Below are positions 47,622 through 54,375 of a stretch of DNA of 64,000 nucleotides, in pieces. Location of the stretch: NCBI GenBank assembly GCA_023247705.1, contig JAHFFY010000008.1, positions 664 through 64,663 of the forward strand, given 5' to 3'. The notes beneath the pieces are model-generated. The model was not told where the DNA came from. It saw nothing but the letters and a program-made list of their open reading frames with translations, and did no database searches. A program made the translations under genes and the position numbers. This DNA comes from Candidatus Omnitrophota bacterium (GTDB lineage Bacteria > Omnitrophota > Gorgyraeia > Zapsychrales > JAHFFX01). Numbering within the stretch: the stretch's first letter is position 1; every line of letters begins with the position of its first letter.

Positions 47622-48092
47622 TCAGATCCACTGAGGTTTGCCAAATTTTGGTATTACCGAAATAAGAACATTAACCGAATGATTGTCCACCACCCAGGTC
47701 GCACCGATAAATGCCTGCCCCCCTCTGGAACCAACAGCGCTACCGGTTTGGGTAAATGTGATTTTGGAGATGTAATAATGCTCGGGCGCTTCAATGACAA
47801 AACTAATCGTGTACATGGTTGATCTCGGGGTAAAGGCTGCGGTTGAGGCCACACAACCTCTGGACCAGTAAACCACTCCGCCTAAGCCGGAATCAACGGG
47901 GCCGACGTCCATGTTAATACCGATTTTTAATTGATTGGGGTTGATTGGATCAGGGGCGGTGAGCGAGGAATCATAACATCGTGAAGCCAGGGCGTCGCTA
48001 ATATTAGTGAAGGCGACCTGCTGGGCGTTTGCCGAAACTGTTCCCCATAAAAACGCGACTCCCGCCAGTAAAATCTTTGCGCAAAATCTCAT
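47622..48092 (-). CDS. Secreted hypothetical protein
   Basis: Likely start MRFCAKILLAGVAFLWGTVSANAQ (ATG 48090-48092). A protein-like -1 frame continues 45 codons past the stop to just before the terminator, so a frameshift is possible. Confidence 0.5.
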   Translation of the reverse strand: MRFCAKILLAGVAFLWGTVSANAQQVAFTNISDALASRCYDSSLTAPDPINPNQLKIGINMDVGPVDSGLGGVVYWSRGCVASTAAFTPRSTMYTISFVIEAPEHYYISKITFTQTGSAVGSRGGQAFIGATWVVDNHSVNVLISVIPKFGKPQWI

Positions 48093-48258
48093 TTTTTTAC
48101 TCCTTTCATACCAAAGTTGTAGGGTTGAATTAAAATACTCTGCAAATATATCATGAAAAGCGGGACGCGCCATTTTTTTTGAGAGGCTTTAAGAATTTGT
48201 CATCGGTTGTGCGGGAAATGGGGTTGGCCCCGTTTCCTCTGATCTCTCTGTAAAAAAA

Positions 48259-48621
48259 TCATTGATCATCTTTGTCCAAATGAAAATGATGCAAAAATCG
48301 GTGTAAAAGCGGCGTAAACAGGATCGCGAGAGATGAATAAAAACCCACCGCACTCAACAGCGCAAAAACAGCCGTGAAAAATTTTCCGGAATCAGTTTGC
48401 AGGTTACCCTGGAGGCCTAAACCGGTCATGATCATGACCGCATTCACCAAAGCATCGACCCAAGATTGGTGTTCAAAATAATAATAACCCAAAGTTCCCG
48501 CAAAAATGGTTATAGACACAATAACCATCGAAAAAATAAAACTGTTCAACATCCTCTTTAGAAACAGGTCATACGGCAGGACAGGTTGGCGCCGATGTTC
48601 AAAAATAAATCGTTTGGGCAT
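48259..48621 (-). CDS. Small 2-TM membrane protein, possibly ion-channel-like
   Basis: 120 aa; two TM helices flanking MTGLGLQGN. Confidence 0.4.
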   Translation of the reverse strand: MPKRFIFEHRRQPVLPYDLFLKRMLNSFIFSMVIVSITIFAGTLGYYYFEHQSWVDALVNAVMIMTGLGLQGNLQTDSGKFFTAVFALLSAVGFYSSLAILFTPLLHRFLHHFHLDKDDQ

Positions 48622-48717
48622 GAAATTGATTTTATCTTAAAAAATCGGGACAGACACTAATTTTCTTTTGAAAAATAGGGTTTGTCCCGCATTACCGATG
48701 AAAGTTTGAAACAAGGC

Positions 48718-49434
48718 CTATTGATTCTTCCTCGGATGGACCGGCTTCGCGGCACATTTTTGTTGAAAACTTTTATAAAGTTCCATTTTCCAGACATGCT
48801 TCTCTTGTTTTAAAAGCTCGTAACTCTCCCGCGTCAGGTCAGCCACAAAATAGGTATCGTAATCGCCCCAGTTGTTCACTTCGTAATTTCTTATGCCGGA
48901 ACCCAGCGGCTTGATGATCCGGTCGAGCGCGAACTGCCGCATTTGGGCTTGCCAGGCTGGCAGGTCTGGATTGGCAGAACCTTCTCGAATCTTGCAGATC
49001 ACCATAATCTTGGAATAGGGATGGTTCTGAAATTCTTCCCCAATTTCTTTGTCTCTCGCCGTCATTTCATCCAGAACGGCTTGACGTTCCCGGTGGACCT
49101 TCGCTTTTAAATCTGCGGCCTTTTGAAAACCCCAGACCAAAGGAACCGCCAAAACCAGCAGCGCCGGAAAAATGATTTTTTCACTCCCCCATCTTAACCG
49201 GCGCAGAGTCAGGGGAACGAGAAAATAGGAAATAATCGCGCCCAAAAGAATCAGCGCCGGTCCCACGATCATGCCGAAAAACATTCCCAGTCCGGTGTAA
49301 TCACAATCCACCGAACCACACGCCGAGACCTGGATTAAAATCGCGATTCCCGATCCGAACAAAAAAATACCGAATAATGCGCCGATGAGACAGCAATAGC
49401 CGAAAATTCGATCTGCGGGTGAAGTCGTGTTCAT
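48718..49434 (-). CDS. Hypothetical membrane protein (238 aa)
   Basis: Three N-terminal TM helices, then a soluble domain. Confidence 0.5.
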   Translation of the reverse strand: MNTTSPADRIFGYCCLIGALFGIFLFGSGIAILIQVSACGSVDCDYTGLGMFFGMIVGPALILLGAIISYFLVPLTLRRLRWGSEKIIFPALLVLAVPLVWGFQKAADLKAKVHRERQAVLDEMTARDKEIGEEFQNHPYSKIMVICKIREGSANPDLPAWQAQMRQFALDRIIKPLGSGIRNYEVNNWGDYDTYFVADLTRESYELLKQEKHVWKMELYKSFQQKCAAKPVHPRKNQ

Positions 49435-49472
49435 AAAGGATTATATTGTTTTTTTGATGAAAAAAAACTTTT

Positions 49473-49706
49473 TTAATAATTAAAAAAATCTTTCAGCGTA
49501 AAAGTCTCGGTGGGCTTAAGCGTTTGAAACGCCTCCAGGATTTTGGACTGCGCATTTGCCGTCAACCGCCGGCCCTTGCGTCCTTTCTGGACCATCTTGA
49601 AGGTCAACTGCTTAGTCGAGGCCTTCACCAAATCCGCGCTGGTCACCCCCAGGCGGGTCATGAGCGTATCTAAAGGTTGGGGGCCGAAGTCGGATTGCAT
49701 GAGCAA
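49473..49706 (-). CDS. Small hypothetical protein, possibly DNA-binding (HTH-like LMTRLGVTSADLVKAS)
   Basis: 77 aa; basic; lies in the AT-rich islet. Confidence 0.35.
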   Translation of the reverse strand: MLMQSDFGPQPLDTLMTRLGVTSADLVKASTKQLTFKMVQKGRKGRRLTANAQSKILEAFQTLKPTETFTLKDFFNY

Positions 49707-49771
49707 GATCTCTATTACTAGGAACAGAGACTAATTTCCTTTTGAAAAATGGTGTCCTTATTTAATTTCCC

Positions 49772-50938
49772 CTAATTAATAGTAGAGTATACCAGCCCCT
49801 CACAATAACTAATTTTTAATTCCTCATCGTTCAAATTTCTTAAACTCTCAAAATCTGCTCGGTCTTTTACAAATTCAACAATTCGTTCACGGGGCGTATT
49901 TTTGTAGCTTTCATAAAAGAAATCAAACAAATCAATAAGGTCTTTTGCTTTCCGTCCTTGCCGGAGAGGAACGCCCAAAAATGTATCCGGTTGCCTGCGG
50001 TAGGCAATTAATTCTTCATCGGTCATTGGATTTGTGCAATGCACCCGTTCCCCCGTTACAGTACGATATACTCCCCATATTTTCTTTTCATGCCCCGACA
50101 CTGTGGCCGTTTCTAAAATCGCCTCTACGTTTTGACCTTCCTTATCAGGAATCAAATATTTTTGTCCAATAATTAGCCGTGGTGGCATATCTTTACCGGC
50201 AAAAGCGAATTCAGGATATTCTCCGTCAAACGTTGATGGAATTTCTTCATGCTCACATACTGATCTAACCAAATCAAACATATCAATATGTTTTTCCCGT
50301 GCCTTCAATGCTTCACGCAAACTTGTAAACTGAAAATCGAGACTGAATTCTGGAATCTTAAAGCCATGTGCAAATCCAGCCTTATGCTCAGAAATTCCCT
50401 CTAAATCATATTCAAAAGGATGATTGGTAACAAAAAGATATGCCTTCTGATCTTCTTTCCATGAAGATTCCTTCTGTTTAATCCCTGCAACAATATCCGG
50501 CATTTTTCTCAAAAAATCAGGAACGTTGATATCCACAAAAACGATTCTTTCATGTTTCGCTTGTTTAATTAAAGCATCCCCTATTTGCTTACTAATCCCT
50601 ATATTGTCTTTATGGGGCTGTCGTACTTTTGCCTCTATAGAATATTTTCTACCAGTTTTGGGAGATACCGCTGTAAATTCACAATGAGTAGTCCGGCTAT
50701 CTTCTTCGTTTTCTATCTCCAAACTAAAACCAGCTTTAATAAATTCGGTGGCAACGTATGTTTCATACTGCGCACCGCGAAAATTATTTTTATCTTTCAG
50801 TCTTCCTAATAAACGATCCTGAATCTTTACGTTATGCCCCAAAAGATACAAATTATAGGAAAGATTCATGATCGCAGAAACAGCACCAGACATCGGCGCA
50901 TCATTTATAGACCCATCAACGCTTTGATGCTGTTGCAT
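49772..50938 (-). CDS. Hypothetical protein (388 aa); in the same frame as the upstream SEC-C ORF across a single TAG
   Basis: AT-rich; an open 25-codon in-frame bridge (GQGEFAKPFEDRHPLIQWNEQAHKY) links it to 51014-51319. Confidence 0.5.
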   Translation of the reverse strand: MQQHQSVDGSINDAPMSGAVSAIMNLSYNLYLLGHNVKIQDRLLGRLKDKNNFRGAQYETYVATEFIKAGFSLEIENEEDSRTTHCEFTAVSPKTGRKYSIEAKVRQPHKDNIGISKQIGDALIKQAKHERIVFVDINVPDFLRKMPDIVAGIKQKESSWKEDQKAYLFVTNHPFEYDLEGISEHKAGFAHGFKIPEFSLDFQFTSLREALKAREKHIDMFDLVRSVCEHEEIPSTFDGEYPEFAFAGKDMPPRLIIGQKYLIPDKEGQNVEAILETATVSGHEKKIWGVYRTVTGERVHCTNPMTDEELIAYRRQPDTFLGVPLRQGRKAKDLIDLFDFFYESYKNTPRERIVEFVKDRADFESLRNLNDEELKISYCEGLVYSTIN

Positions 50939-51013
50939 GTATTTATGCGCTTGTTCATTCCATTGAATCAGCGGATGCCGATCTTCAAACGGCTTGGCAA
51001 ATTCTCCTTGTCC

Positions 51014-51319
51014 CTAATCTTTTCCAAAGACTGAGCGAATATATTCAAACAAAAAATCATGAAACGTCTTCCATTTCTGTGAATAATACATCCTGTTACC
51101 AACAGCAACCATGCGATAGCCCTTAAACTCAAGCGATATTATTGACCTGCCTAACCCTTGTTGTTTTTCTACCTGCATTTGTTTTGCTTTTTGTCGTTCA
51201 AATTGCAAACGAACATCGTCGGGAATCATATCAGATTTACCGTAACAGCATTTTTTATACTTTTTCCCACTACCGCAAGAACAGGGGTCATTTCTTCCAA
51301 CTTTTTTCATTGGTCTCAA
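51014..51319 (-). CDS. SEC-C motif domain protein
   Basis: 101 aa; [18 protein letters not shown] is the SEC-C metal-binding motif. Confidence 0.55.
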
Positions 51320-51475
51320 TTCTCACTAAACGCCTGAAGAATTCCAAGAACGCATATCGAATTCACAATAATAAGTCGGGACATGTCCGATCTATTATGA
51401 TCTTCTTTCCCAATTCAACGGAAGTCCAGCCATTGCGTTAGGTCTTCTCTTCGCCCAAAAGTCTTTACCGGTCGA

Positions 51476-51880
51476 CTAAAACACCCGGGAGACTGTGGTC
51501 ATGTGTCCGGATGAATTTTCGGCCATGGCCGAAAATCTGACCTGCGCGGTTCGAATTTTCATACCGCGATCAGAACGGACACGATAACCAACAGCCAGTA
51601 TCATATCAAGATTATAAAAATCAACATTCCTAGAAACCTGTCTTGAACCCTCAGTTTGAACTATTAGGAATTTCCGAATAGTTGCCGTACCTTTAAGCTC
51701 GCCTTCATCGATAATATTCTTAATATGCTCATTAACAGTCGGCACAGAAACTTGAAATAACTCGGCTATCATTTTCTGGGTAAGCCATGCCGTTTCGTTT
51801 TCAAGACGCACTTCCAGCTTTATTTTTCCATCCTCAGTTTGATAAAGAATCATTCCTGATGTTCCGGTTGCTTCATTCAT
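51476..51880 (-). CDS. RhuM-family (Virulence_RhuM) protein, C-terminally truncated fragment
   Basis: MILYQTEDGKIKLEVRLENETAWLTQKMIAELFQVSVPTVNEHIKNIIDEGEL...FYNLDMILAVGYRVRSDRG matches the RhuM N-terminus; full-length RhuM is ~330 aa but this ORF stops at 134 aa. Confidence 0.55.
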   Translation of the reverse strand: MNEATGTSGMILYQTEDGKIKLEVRLENETAWLTQKMIAELFQVSVPTVNEHIKNIIDEGELKGTATIRKFLIVQTEGSRQVSRNVDFYNLDMILAVGYRVRSDRGMKIRTAQVRFSAMAENSSGHMTTVSRVF

Positions 51881-51944
51881 CGATAAAACCTCCCGACATG
51901 AACCTGAAATTTATTCTAAAAAAATCTCCCGGGCAAACGAAAGA

Positions 51945-52694
51945 CTATCCTTTTTTTCCTGAGCCGGCTTTCAATTCCTTCTGGGCCGTTTCCAGCCACT
52001 GTTTATGTTCTTGACGGTAAAACGGCGGTGAGATTTTACAATTTTTAATGATGGCGGCGAATATTTTTTGGGCCTCATCCGTTCTTCCCAGACTTTTGAG
52101 AAACAGGGCGTGGCGGCAGCGGGCCTCTTCCCCGACATAAGACTGGCTCAAGGTTTCGTACTCCTTGAGAGCGGCTTCCTTCTCTCCCAATTTTTGTAAA
52201 ACCACCGCGTACAAAAGATGGTCTTCCTGGCGGCTGAATTTTTGCGGGGCGCGGTCCAGGCTCAAAAGGGTCTCTTTGGATTTAAGGTAATCCTCCTGGC
52301 AAAAAAAAGACTGGGCCATTAAACTCAACACCTCCGGGTCATCGCCATGCCAGCCGTCCCGGCACACTTTCAGCGTTTCGGTGGCCTGGGGATACTGCCG
52401 GCAATCCATATAGGCGCGGGCCAGGGCGAGACGGTTTTTTACGGAATCGCACAGGTCGAGTTCTTCTTTGAGTTGGGTGATCTTGTGGCTGGGGACCACG
52501 ACCCCCTGCACGGCGGTCGTAAGATCGTCTACAGTGCCGCGCAGGTCCGGCAAGACCTCCACGATCAAATACACCGCACAGCCCACAAAAGAAAAAACCA
52601 GGATGATCCACAGCCATTGACTCCGTCCGGTTTTGTAAGCGTGCACCGCGCAGACAATTTGTAAAAGGATGGAGATCGAGAGAGGAAGATACAT
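51945..52694 (-). CDS. Membrane-anchored PLDc_N-like + TPR protein
   Basis: 249 aa; ILLQIVCAVHAYKTGRSQWLWIILVFSFVGCAVYLIV (PLD-nuclease N-terminal-type TM hairpin) followed by TPR-like helices. Confidence 0.55.
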   Translation of the reverse strand: MYLPLSISILLQIVCAVHAYKTGRSQWLWIILVFSFVGCAVYLIVEVLPDLRGTVDDLTTAVQGVVVPSHKITQLKEELDLCDSVKNRLALARAYMDCRQYPQATETLKVCRDGWHGDDPEVLSLMAQSFFCQEDYLKSKETLLSLDRAPQKFSRQEDHLLYAVVLQKLGEKEAALKEYETLSQSYVGEEARCRHALFLKSLGRTDEAQKIFAAIIKNCKISPPFYRQEHKQWLETAQKELKAGSGKKG

Positions 52695-52978
52695 GATATT
52701 ATTGGGGGTAGTTCATTTTATTTTTAAAAACGGGGGTCAAGTTGATCTTCTAAACAATACGAAACTTTTGTCACGTTACCACACTTCCCCGGTCCAGTCA
52801 AGAAACCGTCAACTTCTATTGGAAAAACCTCCTCAACACCCGGTGTTGAGGAGGTCCATCTGCCCAAATGATCTGTTGACTTTTAAACATTTTTGGCTAT
52901 AATTTCTTCATTCCTCATCAGCAAATTTTATCCCACTCCATAACAATAATGGGATGTGATCTTTAGATAAAAACTTAT

Positions 52979-53051
52979 TCCCCTGTAGCTCAGTCGGTAG
53001 AGCGGTTGGCTGTTAACCAATAGGTCCGAGGTTCGAGCCCTCGCGGGGGAG
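52979..53051 (+). tRNA. tRNA-Asn (anticodon GUU)
   Basis: Cloverleaf by hand: acceptor TCCCCTG/CGGGGGA, D-arm GCTC-AGTCGGTA-GAGC, anticodon arm GTTGG-CTGTTAA-CCAAT, variable AGGTC, T-arm CGAGG-TTCGAGC-CCTCG, discriminator G; CCA not encoded. Confidence 0.9.
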
Positions 53052-53065
53052 TTTTTCAGGACACA

Positions 53066-53106
53066 AAAGCCCTTCGGCTATATCGTTGAAGGGCTTTCTT
53101 TCTGTT
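53066..53106 (+). terminator. Rho-independent terminator after tRNA-Asn
   Basis: AAAGCCCTTCGGCTATATCGTTGAAGGGCTTT followed by CTTTCTGTT. Confidence 0.6.
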
Positions 53107-53151
53107 GGGTAAAAGAGTCACGTCATTTATGAGCTTACCCCCATTAAGCAA

Positions 53152-54129
53152 GTGACATCGGTTAAACAAAGCGCGGCCGAGTACCATAGGTTAATTGTAC
53201 GAATCGGAGGTAAAGTGAACATGTCGCTGAAAGCTATTATTAAAAAAATGATGCATAGTCCGACACTCAACCCATTTATTAGAGGGGGTATAAAGTTATT
53301 TCGTTCAGAGAAACTAAATGATTTTTTGATGTACCGAGTGCCCATTTTGGGGAAGTTCTCATTAAAAGTGACGAATAGCAAAAAATTGATTCTTAAATCC
53401 AGCGGGAATGACGCCATAGCTATAAAGCTCTATTGGAAAGGAATGGACGGGTTTGAACCAGAGACATTTCCTCTTTTTCGAAGCCTTTTGAAGCATTCAA
53501 AAACTTTTTTTGATATCGGGGCAAATATCGGAATTTATTCGTTGGTCGCAGCCGTTGAAAACCCTCAAATACAAGTCCATGCCTTTGAACCATCCCCCTT
53601 GCCGTTAAAAAGCTTTAAGGAAAATCTGAATCTGAATAATCTAAAAAATATAAAGATCCACTCGACCGCAATTACGAATTATGACGGAGAAATAAAACTA
53701 TTTATCCCAGCCTCACGCAGTATCCCGACATCTTCCTCAACTCGTCATGGTTTTAGAGAAAATTGCAAGGAAATTACTGTCCCGGCCGGAAAATTAGACT
53801 CTTTTGTTGAGAATAATAATATTGGGAATCTGGATTTAATTAAAATTGATACGGAAGGAACCGAGCATCTTGTTTTTGGGGGAGCAAGTAATGTTCTGGC
53901 GAACCATAGACCAATTATAATTTGTGAGGTCTTGAAGGGCCTAACGGAAACCCCGCTTCAAGCTGTTTTCGATAAGAATGAATACCGCTCTGTTTGGATT
54001 TCCGGTGAAGGATTAATTGAGAAAAGCATTGAAGGTGATCCCTTCTATGAATTTAATAATTTTTTGTTTATTCCAAAAGAAAGATTTAATTTTTTCAAGA
54101 ATATCAATCGCATGACAAATTATTCATGA
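53152..54129 (+). CDS. FkbM-family methyltransferase, AT-rich
   Basis: 325 aa; FDIGANIGIYSLVAAV...VHAFEPSP is the FkbM SAM-binding region. Lies on the 3' side of tRNA-Asn; the true start may be internal (MSLKAII). Confidence 0.7.
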   Translation: MTSVKQSAAEYHRLIVRIGGKVNMSLKAIIKKMMHSPTLNPFIRGGIKLFRSEKLNDFLMYRVPILGKFSLKVTNSKKLILKSSGNDAIAIKLYWKGMDGFEPETFPLFRSLLKHSKTFFDIGANIGIYSLVAAVENPQIQVHAFEPSPLPLKSFKENLNLNNLKNIKIHSTAITNYDGEIKLFIPASRSIPTSSSTRHGFRENCKEITVPAGKLDSFVENNNIGNLDLIKIDTEGTEHLVFGGASNVLANHRPIIICEVLKGLTETPLQAVFDKNEYRSVWISGEGLIEKSIEGDPFYEFNNFLFIPKERFNFFKNINRMTNYS

Positions 54130-54375
54130 TCAAGACGTCATCACGAAAACTTAAATAAAGCCAGTTGCAAAACTCGTCCACAATATCCAATTATTGCATG
54201 GGTTTCACTTGCGATGGACTGATCCAGATATTGATCTACATCTCGGCTCACTTAAAAATATCGAAAAATACTGTTTAGTTTACGTCTAACACTTGTCAGT
54301 TTTGTTCAAAAAAGACATCCTGATTAAAGCGGCATGCCTTTTTTAATTGATCGGCTTCGAAACGAAAACTCTTTC

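What the first reader, a model, noticed from the sequence alone, without database searches (positions are those of the whole stretch)
49473..51900. Decayed AT-rich islet: SEC-C-domain gene split by a single in-frame TAG, flanked by a RhuM fragment and a small HTH-like ORF
ORFs 51014-51319 (SEC-C motif [18 protein letters not shown]) and 49772-50938 (388 aa) are in the same frame. A stop-free 25-codon bridge links them across one TAG (51014-51016), consistent with one ~515-aa gene carrying a nonsense mutation. Alternatively they are two adjacent genes, since 25 stop-free codons is not itself significant. Upstream is a 134-aa ORF matching the first ~100 residues of RhuM-family proteins, which are frequent in R-M/defence islands, but truncated. 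Downstream is a 77-aa HTH-like ORF. The block is AT-rich relative to flanks. It looks like a remnant mobile or defence island. The 388-aa part contains a possible ExK (SIEAKV) nuclease-like motif.
Basis: partly seen in the sequence, partly recalled or inferred. Interest (0 to 1): 0.55.

Follow-up and report, generated by a model that had tools for sequence, protein, structure and literature searches.

The report
Broken nuclease gene in decayed islet
A 2.2-kb AT-rich patch in an Omnitrophota genome holds two dead genes: the front third of a RhuM gene, and a full-length gene of a widespread, unstudied zinc-knuckle plus predicted-nuclease family knocked out by one TGG-to-TAG change. This is ordinary gene decay; only the family itself is of some interest.

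Summary
On the minus strand, 51310-49772 is one 512-codon frame with a single internal stop (TAG, 51016-51014); other frames carry 16-61 stops. More than 1000 homologues are single 516-550-aa proteins that cover the whole fused sequence. The TAG aligns to a nearly invariant Trp, so the change was TGG>TAG. Two other metagenome assemblies carry the same TAG, and TAG ends 18 of 64 long ORFs in the window, so it is neither an error nor recoding. The gene is a recent pseudogene: only four other deviations, all conservative, occur at 88 otherwise invariant columns.

The family has about 950 clusters at 50% identity across many phyla. It has an N-terminal SEC-C zinc knuckle, then a predicted PD-(D/E)xK-type nuclease core (E183, E211, E226-A-K228, invariant in the 24 aligned sequences). 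It has no conserved partner gene and is usually lower in G+C than its flanks. The two closest relatives sit beside a LexA/S24-methyltransferase fusion that the window lacks.

The upstream 134-aa ORF is a truncated RhuM. The 77-aa ORF is a conserved, GC-normal small gene and not part of the islet. No HTH was detected in it.

Verdict: an ordinary decayed islet. Low interest.

The parts
49772..51310 (-). Pseudogene of a SEC-C / predicted PD-(D/E)xK nuclease family: 512 codons, one internal TAG, otherwise intact.
51014..51016 (-). The inactivating stop codon TAG (codon 99). It aligns to a nearly invariant Trp in the motif GKEWG, so the change was TGG>TAG.
   Evidence: alignment; the same TAG is present in assemblies L001 and L092.
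51242..51295 (-). SEC-C zinc-binding motif ([18 protein letters not shown], residues 6-23).
   Evidence: PF02810, 31.1 bits, cut-off 20.4. (matches the SecA and YchJ C-terminal peptides in PDB).
51017..51310 (-). N-terminal fragment (98 codons from the ATG) that can still be translated: SEC-C motif, linker helix and part of the conserved N-domain ([17 protein letters not shown]).
50939..51013 (-). 25-codon 'bridge' between the TAG and the next ATG. It is conserved coding sequence, not a spacer.
   Evidence: aligns to homologues (GQAEFAKPFKERHPLIQW...).
50525..50782 (-). Predicted nuclease core (residues 177-262), alpha-beta-beta-beta-alpha-beta. It carries E183 (50762-50764), E211 (50678-50680), E226-A-K228 (50627-50635), Q242 and D260.
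   Evidence: predicted topology, pLDDT 80. (weak fold hits to HindIII, Hjc, Cas4, DdmD and viral PD-(D/E)xK proteins). (coordinates).
51548..51880 (-). RhuM-family N-terminal 111 codons (winged-helix-like part plus the first 46 positions of the Pfam RhuM domain).
51476..51547 (-). 23 unrelated codons plus the stop that close the truncated RhuM ORF. The stretch contains a perfect 20-bp palindrome (51516-51535).
51311..51475 (.). Spacer between the RhuM remnant and the SEC-C gene. It has no similarity to the conserved upstream promoter region of the closest relatives, so a junction of past rearrangement lies in 51311-51547.
49473..49706 (-). Conserved small gene (75-77 aa), G+C 51.7%. It is a flank of the islet, not a part of it.
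51945..52694 (-). TPR-repeat membrane protein gene, G+C about 52%. It forms the other flank of the islet.

Best explanation
Window 49772-51944 is a small remnant of horizontally acquired, defence-type cargo in a Candidatus Omnitrophota genome. It holds two dead genes.

(1) The 5' third of a RhuM-family gene. Its remaining ~220 or more codons have been deleted.

(2) A complete gene of a large, uncharacterised single-gene family, inactivated by one G>A transition (TGG Trp99 > TAG). Because the rest of the frame is intact and keeps every invariant residue, the knock-out is recent. Shown.

Inferred: the intact protein is a Mg2+-dependent DNA endonuclease. Its core has the PD-(D/E)xK layout, with E183 on the first helix, E211 at strand 2 and E226-x-K228 on strand 3. 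An N-terminal SEC-C zinc knuckle and flanking N- and C-terminal domains would provide target or trigger recognition.

Inferred: the family acts alone, as a restriction-like or abortive-infection-like defence nuclease.

Shown for two loci, inferred as regulation: in the nearest relatives the gene is transcribed divergently from a LexA-type S24 repressor fused to a DNA methyltransferase, across a conserved promoter region.

Speculative: the window copy has lost that partner and promoter. Losing a regulating or protecting partner would favour inactivation of a nuclease, which is what the nonsense codon achieves.
For: One gene, one stop:
- 512 codons with a single TAG, against 16-61 stops in the other frames.
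- More than 1000 homologues are single 516-550-aa proteins covering 99-100% of the fused query.
- 81 of 87 loci have one spanning ORF.
- The TAG aligns to Trp, which is at least 90% conserved.

Not an error and not recoding:
- The same TAG is in L001 (99.73% identical, 9 substitutions and 1 indel, another assembly) and in L092.
- TAG terminates 18 of 64 long ORFs, including those annotated here as ATP synthase and recR genes.
- The only tRNA in the window is tRNA-Asn.

Recent inactivation:
- There are only 4 other deviations, all conservative, at 88 columns that are invariant in the other 23 sequences.

Nuclease core:
- E183, H209, E211, E226, A227, K228, Q242 and D260 are invariant.
- The predicted fold is alpha-beta-beta-beta-alpha-beta, with pLDDT 80 and pTM 0.80.
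- Named fold matches are repeatedly PD-(D/E)xK enzymes: HindIII (prob 0.96), DdmD, Hjc, Cas4-type proteins, PspGI, FokI and MspJI, and viral 'PD(D/E)XK endonuclease' (prob 0.98), VRR-NUC and RecU.

Horizontal, stand-alone character:
- 948 clusters at E<=1e-30, found in Omnitrophota, Elusimicrobiota, Planctomycetota, Nitrospirota, many Proteobacteria and plasmids.
- 112 different Pfam families occur among 144 immediate neighbours, and none occurs in more than 4.
- The gene is lower in G+C than its flanks in 41 of 46 loci.
- Neighbours include R-M genes, toxin-antitoxin pairs, recombinases, transposases, CBASS cyclase and Lamassu LmuB.

LexA/S24-MTase partner and conserved intergenic region in L005 and L008, absent from the window.

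RhuM truncation.

Host phylum: the ATP synthase beta subunit is 82-85% identical to the Omnitrophica/Omnitrophota proteins, the only named organisms among the 120 listed hits.
Against: The nuclease assignment is not statistically secure.
- No Foldseek hit reaches E<=0.001, and TM-scores are only 0.25-0.4.
- The top PDB hits are yeast acetyl-CoA carboxylase central domains.
- Profile searches against PDB sequences and Pfam find only the SEC-C motif.
- hhalign against two neighbouring known-type nucleases found nothing.

A defence role is inferred from context only, and that context is mixed. Many neighbours are housekeeping genes such as Hsp70, EF-Tu and NadA. No PADLOC model covers the body of the protein.

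The 'lost partner, then inactivated' order of events cannot be shown. Most family members have no methyltransferase or S24 neighbour, so the family does not in general need one.

The 388-aa downstream ORF begins with an ATG and could in principle still be made.
Confidence: 0.8

Rival explanations
1. The two ORFs are a functional split gene: a 98-aa SEC-C/N-domain protein and a 388-aa nuclease protein that work as two subunits.
For: Both pieces remain open and keep all invariant residues. The second piece starts with an ATG. The same arrangement is seen in three assemblies. Some family members lack the SEC-C motif altogether, for example P0066 and P0094.
Against: No homologue is split here: 81 of 87 loci have one ORF, and the exceptions are mostly contig ends or the same strain. 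The break falls inside a conserved domain at a nearly invariant Trp. The 25 codons between the TAG and the ATG, which include invariant K106, H112 and W117, would be lost from both products. Members that lack SEC-C still keep the N-domain that the 388-aa piece lacks. No Shine-Dalgarno-like sequence precedes the ATG at 50938 (by eye).
Confidence: 0.06
2. The TAG is a sequencing or assembly error, and the gene is intact in the organism.
For: It is a single-base difference from TGG. The sequence comes from a metagenome-assembled genome.
Against: The identical TAG is in two other assemblies (ENA ERZ27280021 and ERZ27276474). One of them differs from the window at 10 other positions, so it is not the same consensus. 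No intact allele closer than 72% identity exists among 5.8 billion clustered proteins.
Confidence: 0.03
3. The TAG is decoded (suppressor tRNA, pyrrolysine or programmed read-through), so a full-length protein is made.
For: The frame is perfectly preserved on both sides of the stop.
Against: TAG is the terminator of 18 of 64 long ORFs in the window, including conserved housekeeping genes. No tRNA with a CUA anticodon was found in the window. Homologues have Trp, not a stop, at this site. No read-through signal is known for this context.
Confidence: 0.02
4. The family is not a nuclease. The conserved E...E...ExK residues serve another role (for example metal or ligand binding in a sensor or regulator), and the gene is not a defence gene.
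For: No significant sequence or fold match to any nuclease was found. Many neighbours are housekeeping genes. SEC-C motifs elsewhere mediate SecB, ribosome or metal binding rather than nucleic-acid cleavage (background knowledge; PDB names).
Against: The order, spacing and strand positions of the invariant acidic and Lys residues match the PD-(D/E)xK template. Named fold hits in two independent libraries are dominated by such nucleases. The patchy, low-G+C, recombinase- and R-M-associated distribution fits mobile defence cargo.
Confidence: 0.3

Closest known systems
Rugutis (single-gene Abi-like antiphage system of lactococcal plasmids; PMC11381338, PMC12184496, PMC13064643)
   Same: The SEC-C motif lies at the very N-terminus, followed by a body with no recognisable domain and no significant PDB match. 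It acts as a single gene and is carried on mobile DNA.
   Different: Rugutis is 359 aa and found in Firmicutes; this family is 516-550 aa and mostly found in Gram-negative phyla. I could not obtain the Rugutis sequence, so homology is untested. tblastn of the window protein against 72,556 plasmids found no Lactococcus hit. No nuclease motif has been reported for Rugutis.
PD-(D/E)xK restriction-endonuclease-fold enzymes (e.g. HindIII, PDB 2E52/3A4K)
   Same: Both have a predicted alpha-beta-beta-beta-alpha-beta core, an acidic residue on helix 1, an acidic residue at strand 2 and (D/E)-x-K on strand 3. From memory, the HindIII catalytic residues have the same layout, with a D-A-K triad. HindIII is the best named fold hit (prob 0.96).
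   Different: There is no significant sequence similarity, and fold scores are weak (E>=0.01, TM 0.25-0.36). Most family members have no adjacent cognate methyltransferase (2 of 144 immediate neighbours). The family also has extra SEC-C, N-terminal and C-terminal domains.
RhuM family (Pfam PF13310; PADLOC candidate PDC-S05/S23)
   Same: The 134-aa ORF matches residues 1-111 at E down to 3e-46. RhuM proteins are recurrent in R-M and defence loci (PMC3710099).
   Different: Only 46 of 252 Pfam positions are present. The putative effector part is deleted and replaced by 23 unrelated codons.
SEC-C motif proteins SecA, YecA and YchJ
   Same: All share the CxCxSGx8C(C/H) zinc-binding knuckle.
   Different: In those proteins the motif is C-terminal and attached to translocation or UPF0225 domains. 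Here it is N-terminal and attached to a nuclease-like body. Nothing beyond the ~20 residues is similar.

Membership tests
SEC-C motif (PF02810) | Cys-x-Cys...Cys-(Cys/His) zinc knuckle scoring above Pfam's gathering threshold | tested here: met
   31.1 bits against a cut-off of 20.4, residues 6-23. 22 of 24 aligned family members also match.
PD-(D/E)xK nuclease superfamily | Core alpha-beta-beta-beta-alpha-beta topology | tested here: met
   AlphaFold2 model of residues 140-335, pLDDT 80.3. In full-length numbering: helix 177-192, strands 196-198, 212-215 and 222-229, helix 240-247, strand 254-260. This is a prediction only.
PD-(D/E)xK nuclease superfamily | Conserved acidic residue at strand 2 and (D/E)-x-K on strand 3, usually with a Glu on helix 1 | tested here: met
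   E183, E211 and E226-A-K228 are invariant in 24 sequences with 48-72% identity to the window's sequence, and sit on the expected elements.
PD-(D/E)xK nuclease superfamily | Statistically significant sequence or structure similarity to an established member | tested here: inconclusive
   Best named hits are HindIII (E=0.025, prob 0.96) and a viral PD(D/E)XK protein (E=0.059, prob 0.98); none reaches E<=0.001. Pfam gives only 2 of 24 members weakly hitting DUF4143 (E=0.053). hhalign against Mrr_cat and PDDEXK_11 proteins was negative.
PD-(D/E)xK nuclease superfamily | Metal-dependent phosphodiester cleavage | not testable with these tools
   Needs biochemistry on an intact homologue.
RhuM family (PF13310) | Match above the gathering score | tested here: met
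   54.3 bits against a cut-off of 33.7. PADLOC PDC-S05 at E=3e-46.
RhuM family (PF13310) | Complete RhuM domain | tested here: not met
   Only profile positions 1-46 of 252 are matched. No remnant of the rest exists in any frame within 48000-54000.
Rugutis antiphage system | N-terminal SEC-C motif on a single-gene system | tested here: met
   The motif is at residues 6-23. No conserved neighbour was found in 84 loci.
Rugutis antiphage system | Sequence or fold homology of the body to Rugutis | not tested
   No Rugutis sequence was available; the paper has no held supplements. No Lactococcus plasmid hit by tblastn.
Type II restriction-modification system | Cognate DNA methyltransferase encoded next to the nuclease | tested here: not met
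   None in the window. Only 2 of 144 immediate neighbours across the family are N6_N4 methyltransferases, those of L005 and L008.

The most novel reading that the evidence does not exclude
The intact family (about 950 clusters at 50% identity, many phyla) is an undescribed single-gene antiphage or anti-plasmid nuclease. An N-terminal SEC-C zinc knuckle and flanking domains would sense a trigger and license a PD-(D/E)xK core. It may be a distant, longer relative of Rugutis. In one lineage it would be wired to a LexA-type S24 repressor-methyltransferase fusion, making it DNA-damage responsive. The window copy would then be a recently disarmed example.
Probability: 0.35. Interest if true: 0.55.

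Novelty: new member of a known kind. Interest (0 to 1): 0.25.

Why it matters
For this genome, it means two annotation fixes. The 98-aa and 388-aa calls should be merged and flagged as one pseudogene, and the 134-aa ORF should be flagged as a RhuM fragment.

More broadly, the work delimits a large, unnamed protein family that public annotation labels only 'SEC-C domain-containing' or 'hypothetical'. The family has a testable catalytic motif (E183, E211, E226-x-K228) and a defined set of intact homologues to express. If it proves to be a defence nuclease, it would add a single-gene system. It might also give a first mechanistic handle on SEC-C-headed defence proteins such as Rugutis.

Tried and rejected
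- Pfam, NCBIfam, PADLOC and PHROGs on the fused protein found only the SEC-C motif. Scanning all 24 aligned members against Pfam added only two weak DUF4143 hits.
- A profile search of PDB sequences found only SEC-C peptides and noise.
- Foldseek with the full-length model was dominated by yeast acetyl-CoA carboxylase central domains at poor TM-scores. I regard these as non-informative alpha/beta similarity. A core-only model gave the same top hits plus many nucleases.
- hhalign of the family profile against a neighbouring Mrr_cat protein and a PDDEXK_11 protein found nothing.
- A search for a conserved partner gene (all-against-all clustering of 884 neighbour ORFs, then Pfam and PADLOC census of 144 immediate neighbours) found none.
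- A search for synteny or an 'empty site' failed. The flanks of L008 and L009 are unrelated to the window. Homologues of the 77-aa gene sit in unrelated housekeeping contexts. No island-free relative was found.
- Flanking direct repeats or att-like sites around the islet were not convincing; only short two-copy matches appeared. The tRNA-Asn at 52978-53052 is separated from the islet by the TPR gene.
- A remnant of the S24-methyltransferase partner in the window was not found.
- The promoter/terminator scan gave counts no different from shuffles.
- Rfam on 48000-53300 found only the tRNA.
- Attempts to reach Rugutis by tblastn against plasmids gave no Lactococcus hits, and a 26-aa SEC-C query returned nothing.
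- Literature searches for this family turned up nothing beyond Rugutis and general RhuM context.
Full report
**1. The observation**

On the minus strand, the ORFs 51014-51319 (101 codons from a TTG, 98 from the ATG at 51310) and 49772-50938 (388 codons) lie in the same frame. One TAG at 51016-51014 and 25 stop-free codons separate them. Read from the ATG at 51310 to the terminator at 49772-49774, the frame has 512 codons and one internal stop. The other five frames of the same 1.5 kb contain 16-61 stops, and base composition predicts about 39. So the open frame is not a chance feature. The SEC-C motif (residues 6-23) passes Pfam's curated threshold.

**2. One gene or two**

A search with the fused sequence returned more than 1000 proteins. 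Apart from the window's own 388-aa fragment, the 119 others listed are single proteins. Nearly all are 497-575 aa, cover 92-100% of the query and are 47-71% identical over the BLASTP alignment.

In an alignment of 24 of them (A1), the TAG falls on a Trp that is conserved in at least 90% of sequences (motif GKEWG). The '25-codon bridge' aligns residue for residue with homologues, including the invariant K106, H112 and W117. TGG>TAG is a single G>A transition.

Among 87 loci fetched from genomes and metagenomes, 81 have one uninterrupted ORF across the match. The exceptions are the window's own strain, contig ends, two unexamined loci and a locus with a second paralogue.

**3. Error or recoding?**

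Two other public assemblies carry the same structure with the same TAG.
- L001 (ENA ERZ27280021) is 99.73% identical over 3.7 kb but differs at nine substitutions and one indel, so it is not a copy of the same consensus.
- L092 (ENA ERZ27276474) is identical over 2.0 kb.

No intact allele closer than 72% identity was found. TAG is an ordinary terminator in this genome: 18 of 64 long non-overlapping ORFs end in TAG, including those I annotated as ATP synthase alpha and gamma and recR. The only tRNA in the window is tRNA-Asn. The host is a Candidatus Omnitrophota bacterium, since its ATP synthase beta subunit is 82-85% identical to the Omnitrophica/Omnitrophota proteins, the only named organisms among the 120 listed hits.

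**4. Age of the lesion**

At 88 alignment columns where the other 23 sequences are identical, the window copy deviates five times: the stop itself and four conservative changes (I>L, I>V, F>L, L>V). Close relatives show 0-2 deviations and distant ones 6-8. With no frameshift and no second stop, the inactivation is recent.

**5. What the protein family is**

No curated family covers anything beyond the SEC-C motif (Pfam, NCBIfam, PADLOC, PHROGs), and neither does any PDB sequence.

The alignment shows a block of invariant residues: Y182-E183, H209-x-E211-F, E226-A-K228, Q242 and D260. AlphaFold2 models place them as follows (whole protein pLDDT 74; residues 140-335 pLDDT 80 and pTM 0.80).
- E183 lies on a helix (177-192).
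- That helix is followed by three strands (196-198, 212-215, 222-229), with E211 at the start of the second strand and E226-x-K228 on the third.
- A helix (240-247) and a fourth strand (254-260) complete the core.

This is the order and spacing of the PD-(D/E)xK restriction-endonuclease fold, which is established knowledge of that superfamily.

Foldseek gives no significant hit (all E>0.001). The top PDB hits are yeast acetyl-CoA carboxylase central domains, which I consider uninformative. The named nucleic-acid enzymes that do recur are almost all PD-(D/E)xK proteins:
- In PDB: HindIII (prob 0.96), DdmD, Hjc, Cas4-type proteins, PspGI, FokI and MspJI.
- In the viral library: 'PD(D/E)XK endonuclease domain' (prob 0.98), restriction endonuclease, VRR-NUC, RecU and Holliday-junction resolvase.

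Direct profile comparisons with a Mrr_cat protein and a PDDEXK_11 protein were negative. I therefore rate 'nuclease' as likely (about 0.6-0.7) but not proven.

**6. Distribution and context of the family**

An exhaustive profile search finds 948 clusters (50% identity) at E<=1e-30 and 1981 at E<=1e-10. Members occur in:
- Omnitrophota, Elusimicrobiota, Planctomycetota, Nitrospirota and Thermodesulfobacteriota;
- Alpha-, Beta- and Gammaproteobacteria, including cultured Pandoraea, Paraburkholderia, Cupriavidus, Bradyrhizobium and Pseudomonas;
- a few Actinobacteria;
- eight plasmids, one next to a type I R-M operon and an integrase;
- only three of 2.9 million viral contigs.

There is no conserved partner. 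Clustering 884 neighbouring ORFs gives no cluster present in more than five loci; those that recur are DNA methyltransferases and ABC-type ATPases (one cluster each), tyrosine recombinases and serine recombinases. The 144 immediate neighbours carry 112 different Pfam families, none in more than four proteins. These include S24/LexA, N6_N4 methyltransferase, transposases, HEPN, Schlafen-AlbA2, SMODS cyclase and LmuB, but also housekeeping genes. The gene is lower in G+C than its flanks in 41 of 46 loci, by 5.4 points on average. DNA similarity between the window and relatives stops exactly at the coding region. Together these mark a stand-alone, horizontally moving gene that is often, though not always, found in defence or mobile neighbourhoods.

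**7. A lineage-specific partner that the window lacks**

In the two closest relatives with usable context (L005 and L008, 71-72% identical), the gene is divergently transcribed from a fusion protein. The fusion comprises a LexA DNA-binding domain, an S24 peptidase and an N6/N4 DNA methyltransferase.

The ~100-bp intergenic region is almost identical in the two loci, with TTGACT-17-TATACT flanked by an inverted CTTGACTT/AAGTCAAG. The LexA/S24 halves are 71-77% identical, while the methyltransferase halves are unrelated. S24 genes also lie next to or near the gene in L002, L039 and L087.

The window has neither this gene nor this intergenic sequence; similarity starts at the start codon. A plausible but unproven scenario is that rearrangement removed the regulator and protector, after which a nonsense mutation in the nuclease was tolerated or favoured.

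**8. The RhuM remnant**

The ORF 51476-51880 matches RhuM-family models over residues 1-111 (PADLOC PDC-S05, E=3e-46; Pfam PF13310 positions 1-46 of 252). It is 50% identical to the first 112 residues of a 476-aa RhuM next to an Elusimicrobia family member. Homology ends at 51548. After that come 23 unrelated codons, and no other RhuM-like segment exists in any frame. A perfect 20-bp palindrome (51516-51535) lies just past the break.

RhuM proteins have been proposed as toxin-like components of R-M and defence loci (PMC3710099). RhuM is within 6 kb of the SEC-C gene in only 3 of the 94 loci then held, so the two are fellow travellers, not a system.

**9. The 77-aa ORF**

This ORF is a real gene. 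Forty-eight homologues other than the window's own protein, 61-107 aa and 47-74% identical, exist in metagenomes. It has 51.7% G+C, like the host flanks. In other genomes it sits among housekeeping genes, with no SEC-C or RhuM neighbour. No HTH or other family matched it. It is the islet's flank, not part of it. The AT-rich islet proper is about 49772-51944 (39% G+C), bounded by this gene and by a TPR membrane-protein gene.

**10. Comparison with what is known**

The nearest described thing by architecture is Rugutis, a 359-aa single-gene Abi-like system from lactococcal plasmids. It has an N-terminal SEC-C motif and an otherwise unmatched fold, and it is triggered by a phage large terminase (PMC11381338, PMC12184496, PMC13064643). 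I could not obtain its sequence, and plasmid tblastn found no Lactococcus relative. So this is a resemblance, not a demonstrated relationship.

By predicted chemistry, the family resembles solitary PD-(D/E)xK nucleases. It fails the type II R-M criterion of an adjacent methyltransferase in nearly all loci.

**11. Verdict**

As biology of this window, it is ordinary: a small decayed patch of acquired DNA with one truncated and one nonsense-inactivated gene. The residual interest lies in the intact family, which is large, unnamed, probably a nuclease and possibly a defence gene. Interest 0.25; novelty: new member of a known kind.

Noticed in passing
window 49708-49755 and 48634-48681: A 48-nt element occurs twice at 77% identity, each copy ending 7-12 nt upstream of a minus-strand start codon (the 75/77-aa gene and ORF 48259-48621). 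Its 28-nt core TTTTCAAAAGRAAATTAGTSTCTGTYCC occurs only at these two sites, with 0 expected by chance. There is no Rfam match. It may be a shared promoter or 5'-UTR element.
   Followed up: partly
window 51516-51535: A perfect 20-bp palindrome, TTTTCGGCCATGGCCGAAAA, lies 12 nt beyond the point where RhuM homology breaks off. It may mark the deletion or recombination junction.
   Followed up: no
L005 1-1593 and L008 8107-10000: In both loci a LexA-HTH / S24 peptidase / N6_N4 DNA methyltransferase fusion gene is divergent from the SEC-C nuclease-like gene. The ~100-bp intergenic promoter region is nearly identical in the two loci, although the methyltransferase halves are unrelated. This may be a DNA-damage-responsive control module exchanged between methyltransferases.
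   Followed up: partly
L092 1-777 (ENA ERZ27276474) vs window 52570 onward: This contig is 100% identical to the window from 52569 down to 50541, but its first 777 bases do not match the window. They encode a different neighbour, and the TPR protein is called as 205 aa instead of 249 aa. It is either a strain-level structural variant or a chimeric contig.
   Followed up: no
L019 7343-8287 and 10091-11572: A Brocadiaceae MAG carries a second, partial and divergent paralogue (33% identity, residues 31-320) 1.8 kb upstream of its full-length family member.
   Followed up: no
window 52978-53052: The only tRNA gene in the window, tRNA-Asn (GTT), sits between the TPR gene and another AT-rich stretch (53150-54250, 36-42% G+C) that holds a 325-aa ORF. 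The tRNA could be an old integration site for variable DNA on either side.
   Followed up: no
plasmid hits H3-H5 (e.g. L095 3836-5269, Agrobacterium pAt1D1609b): 'SEC-C domain-containing' proteins on Rhizobiaceae plasmids match only residues ~31-372 of the family (33-35% identity). One examined example, on Agrobacterium pAt1D1609b, is 477 aa, with a tail the query does not match. So the SEC-C + N-domain + core module combines with different tails.
   Followed up: partly
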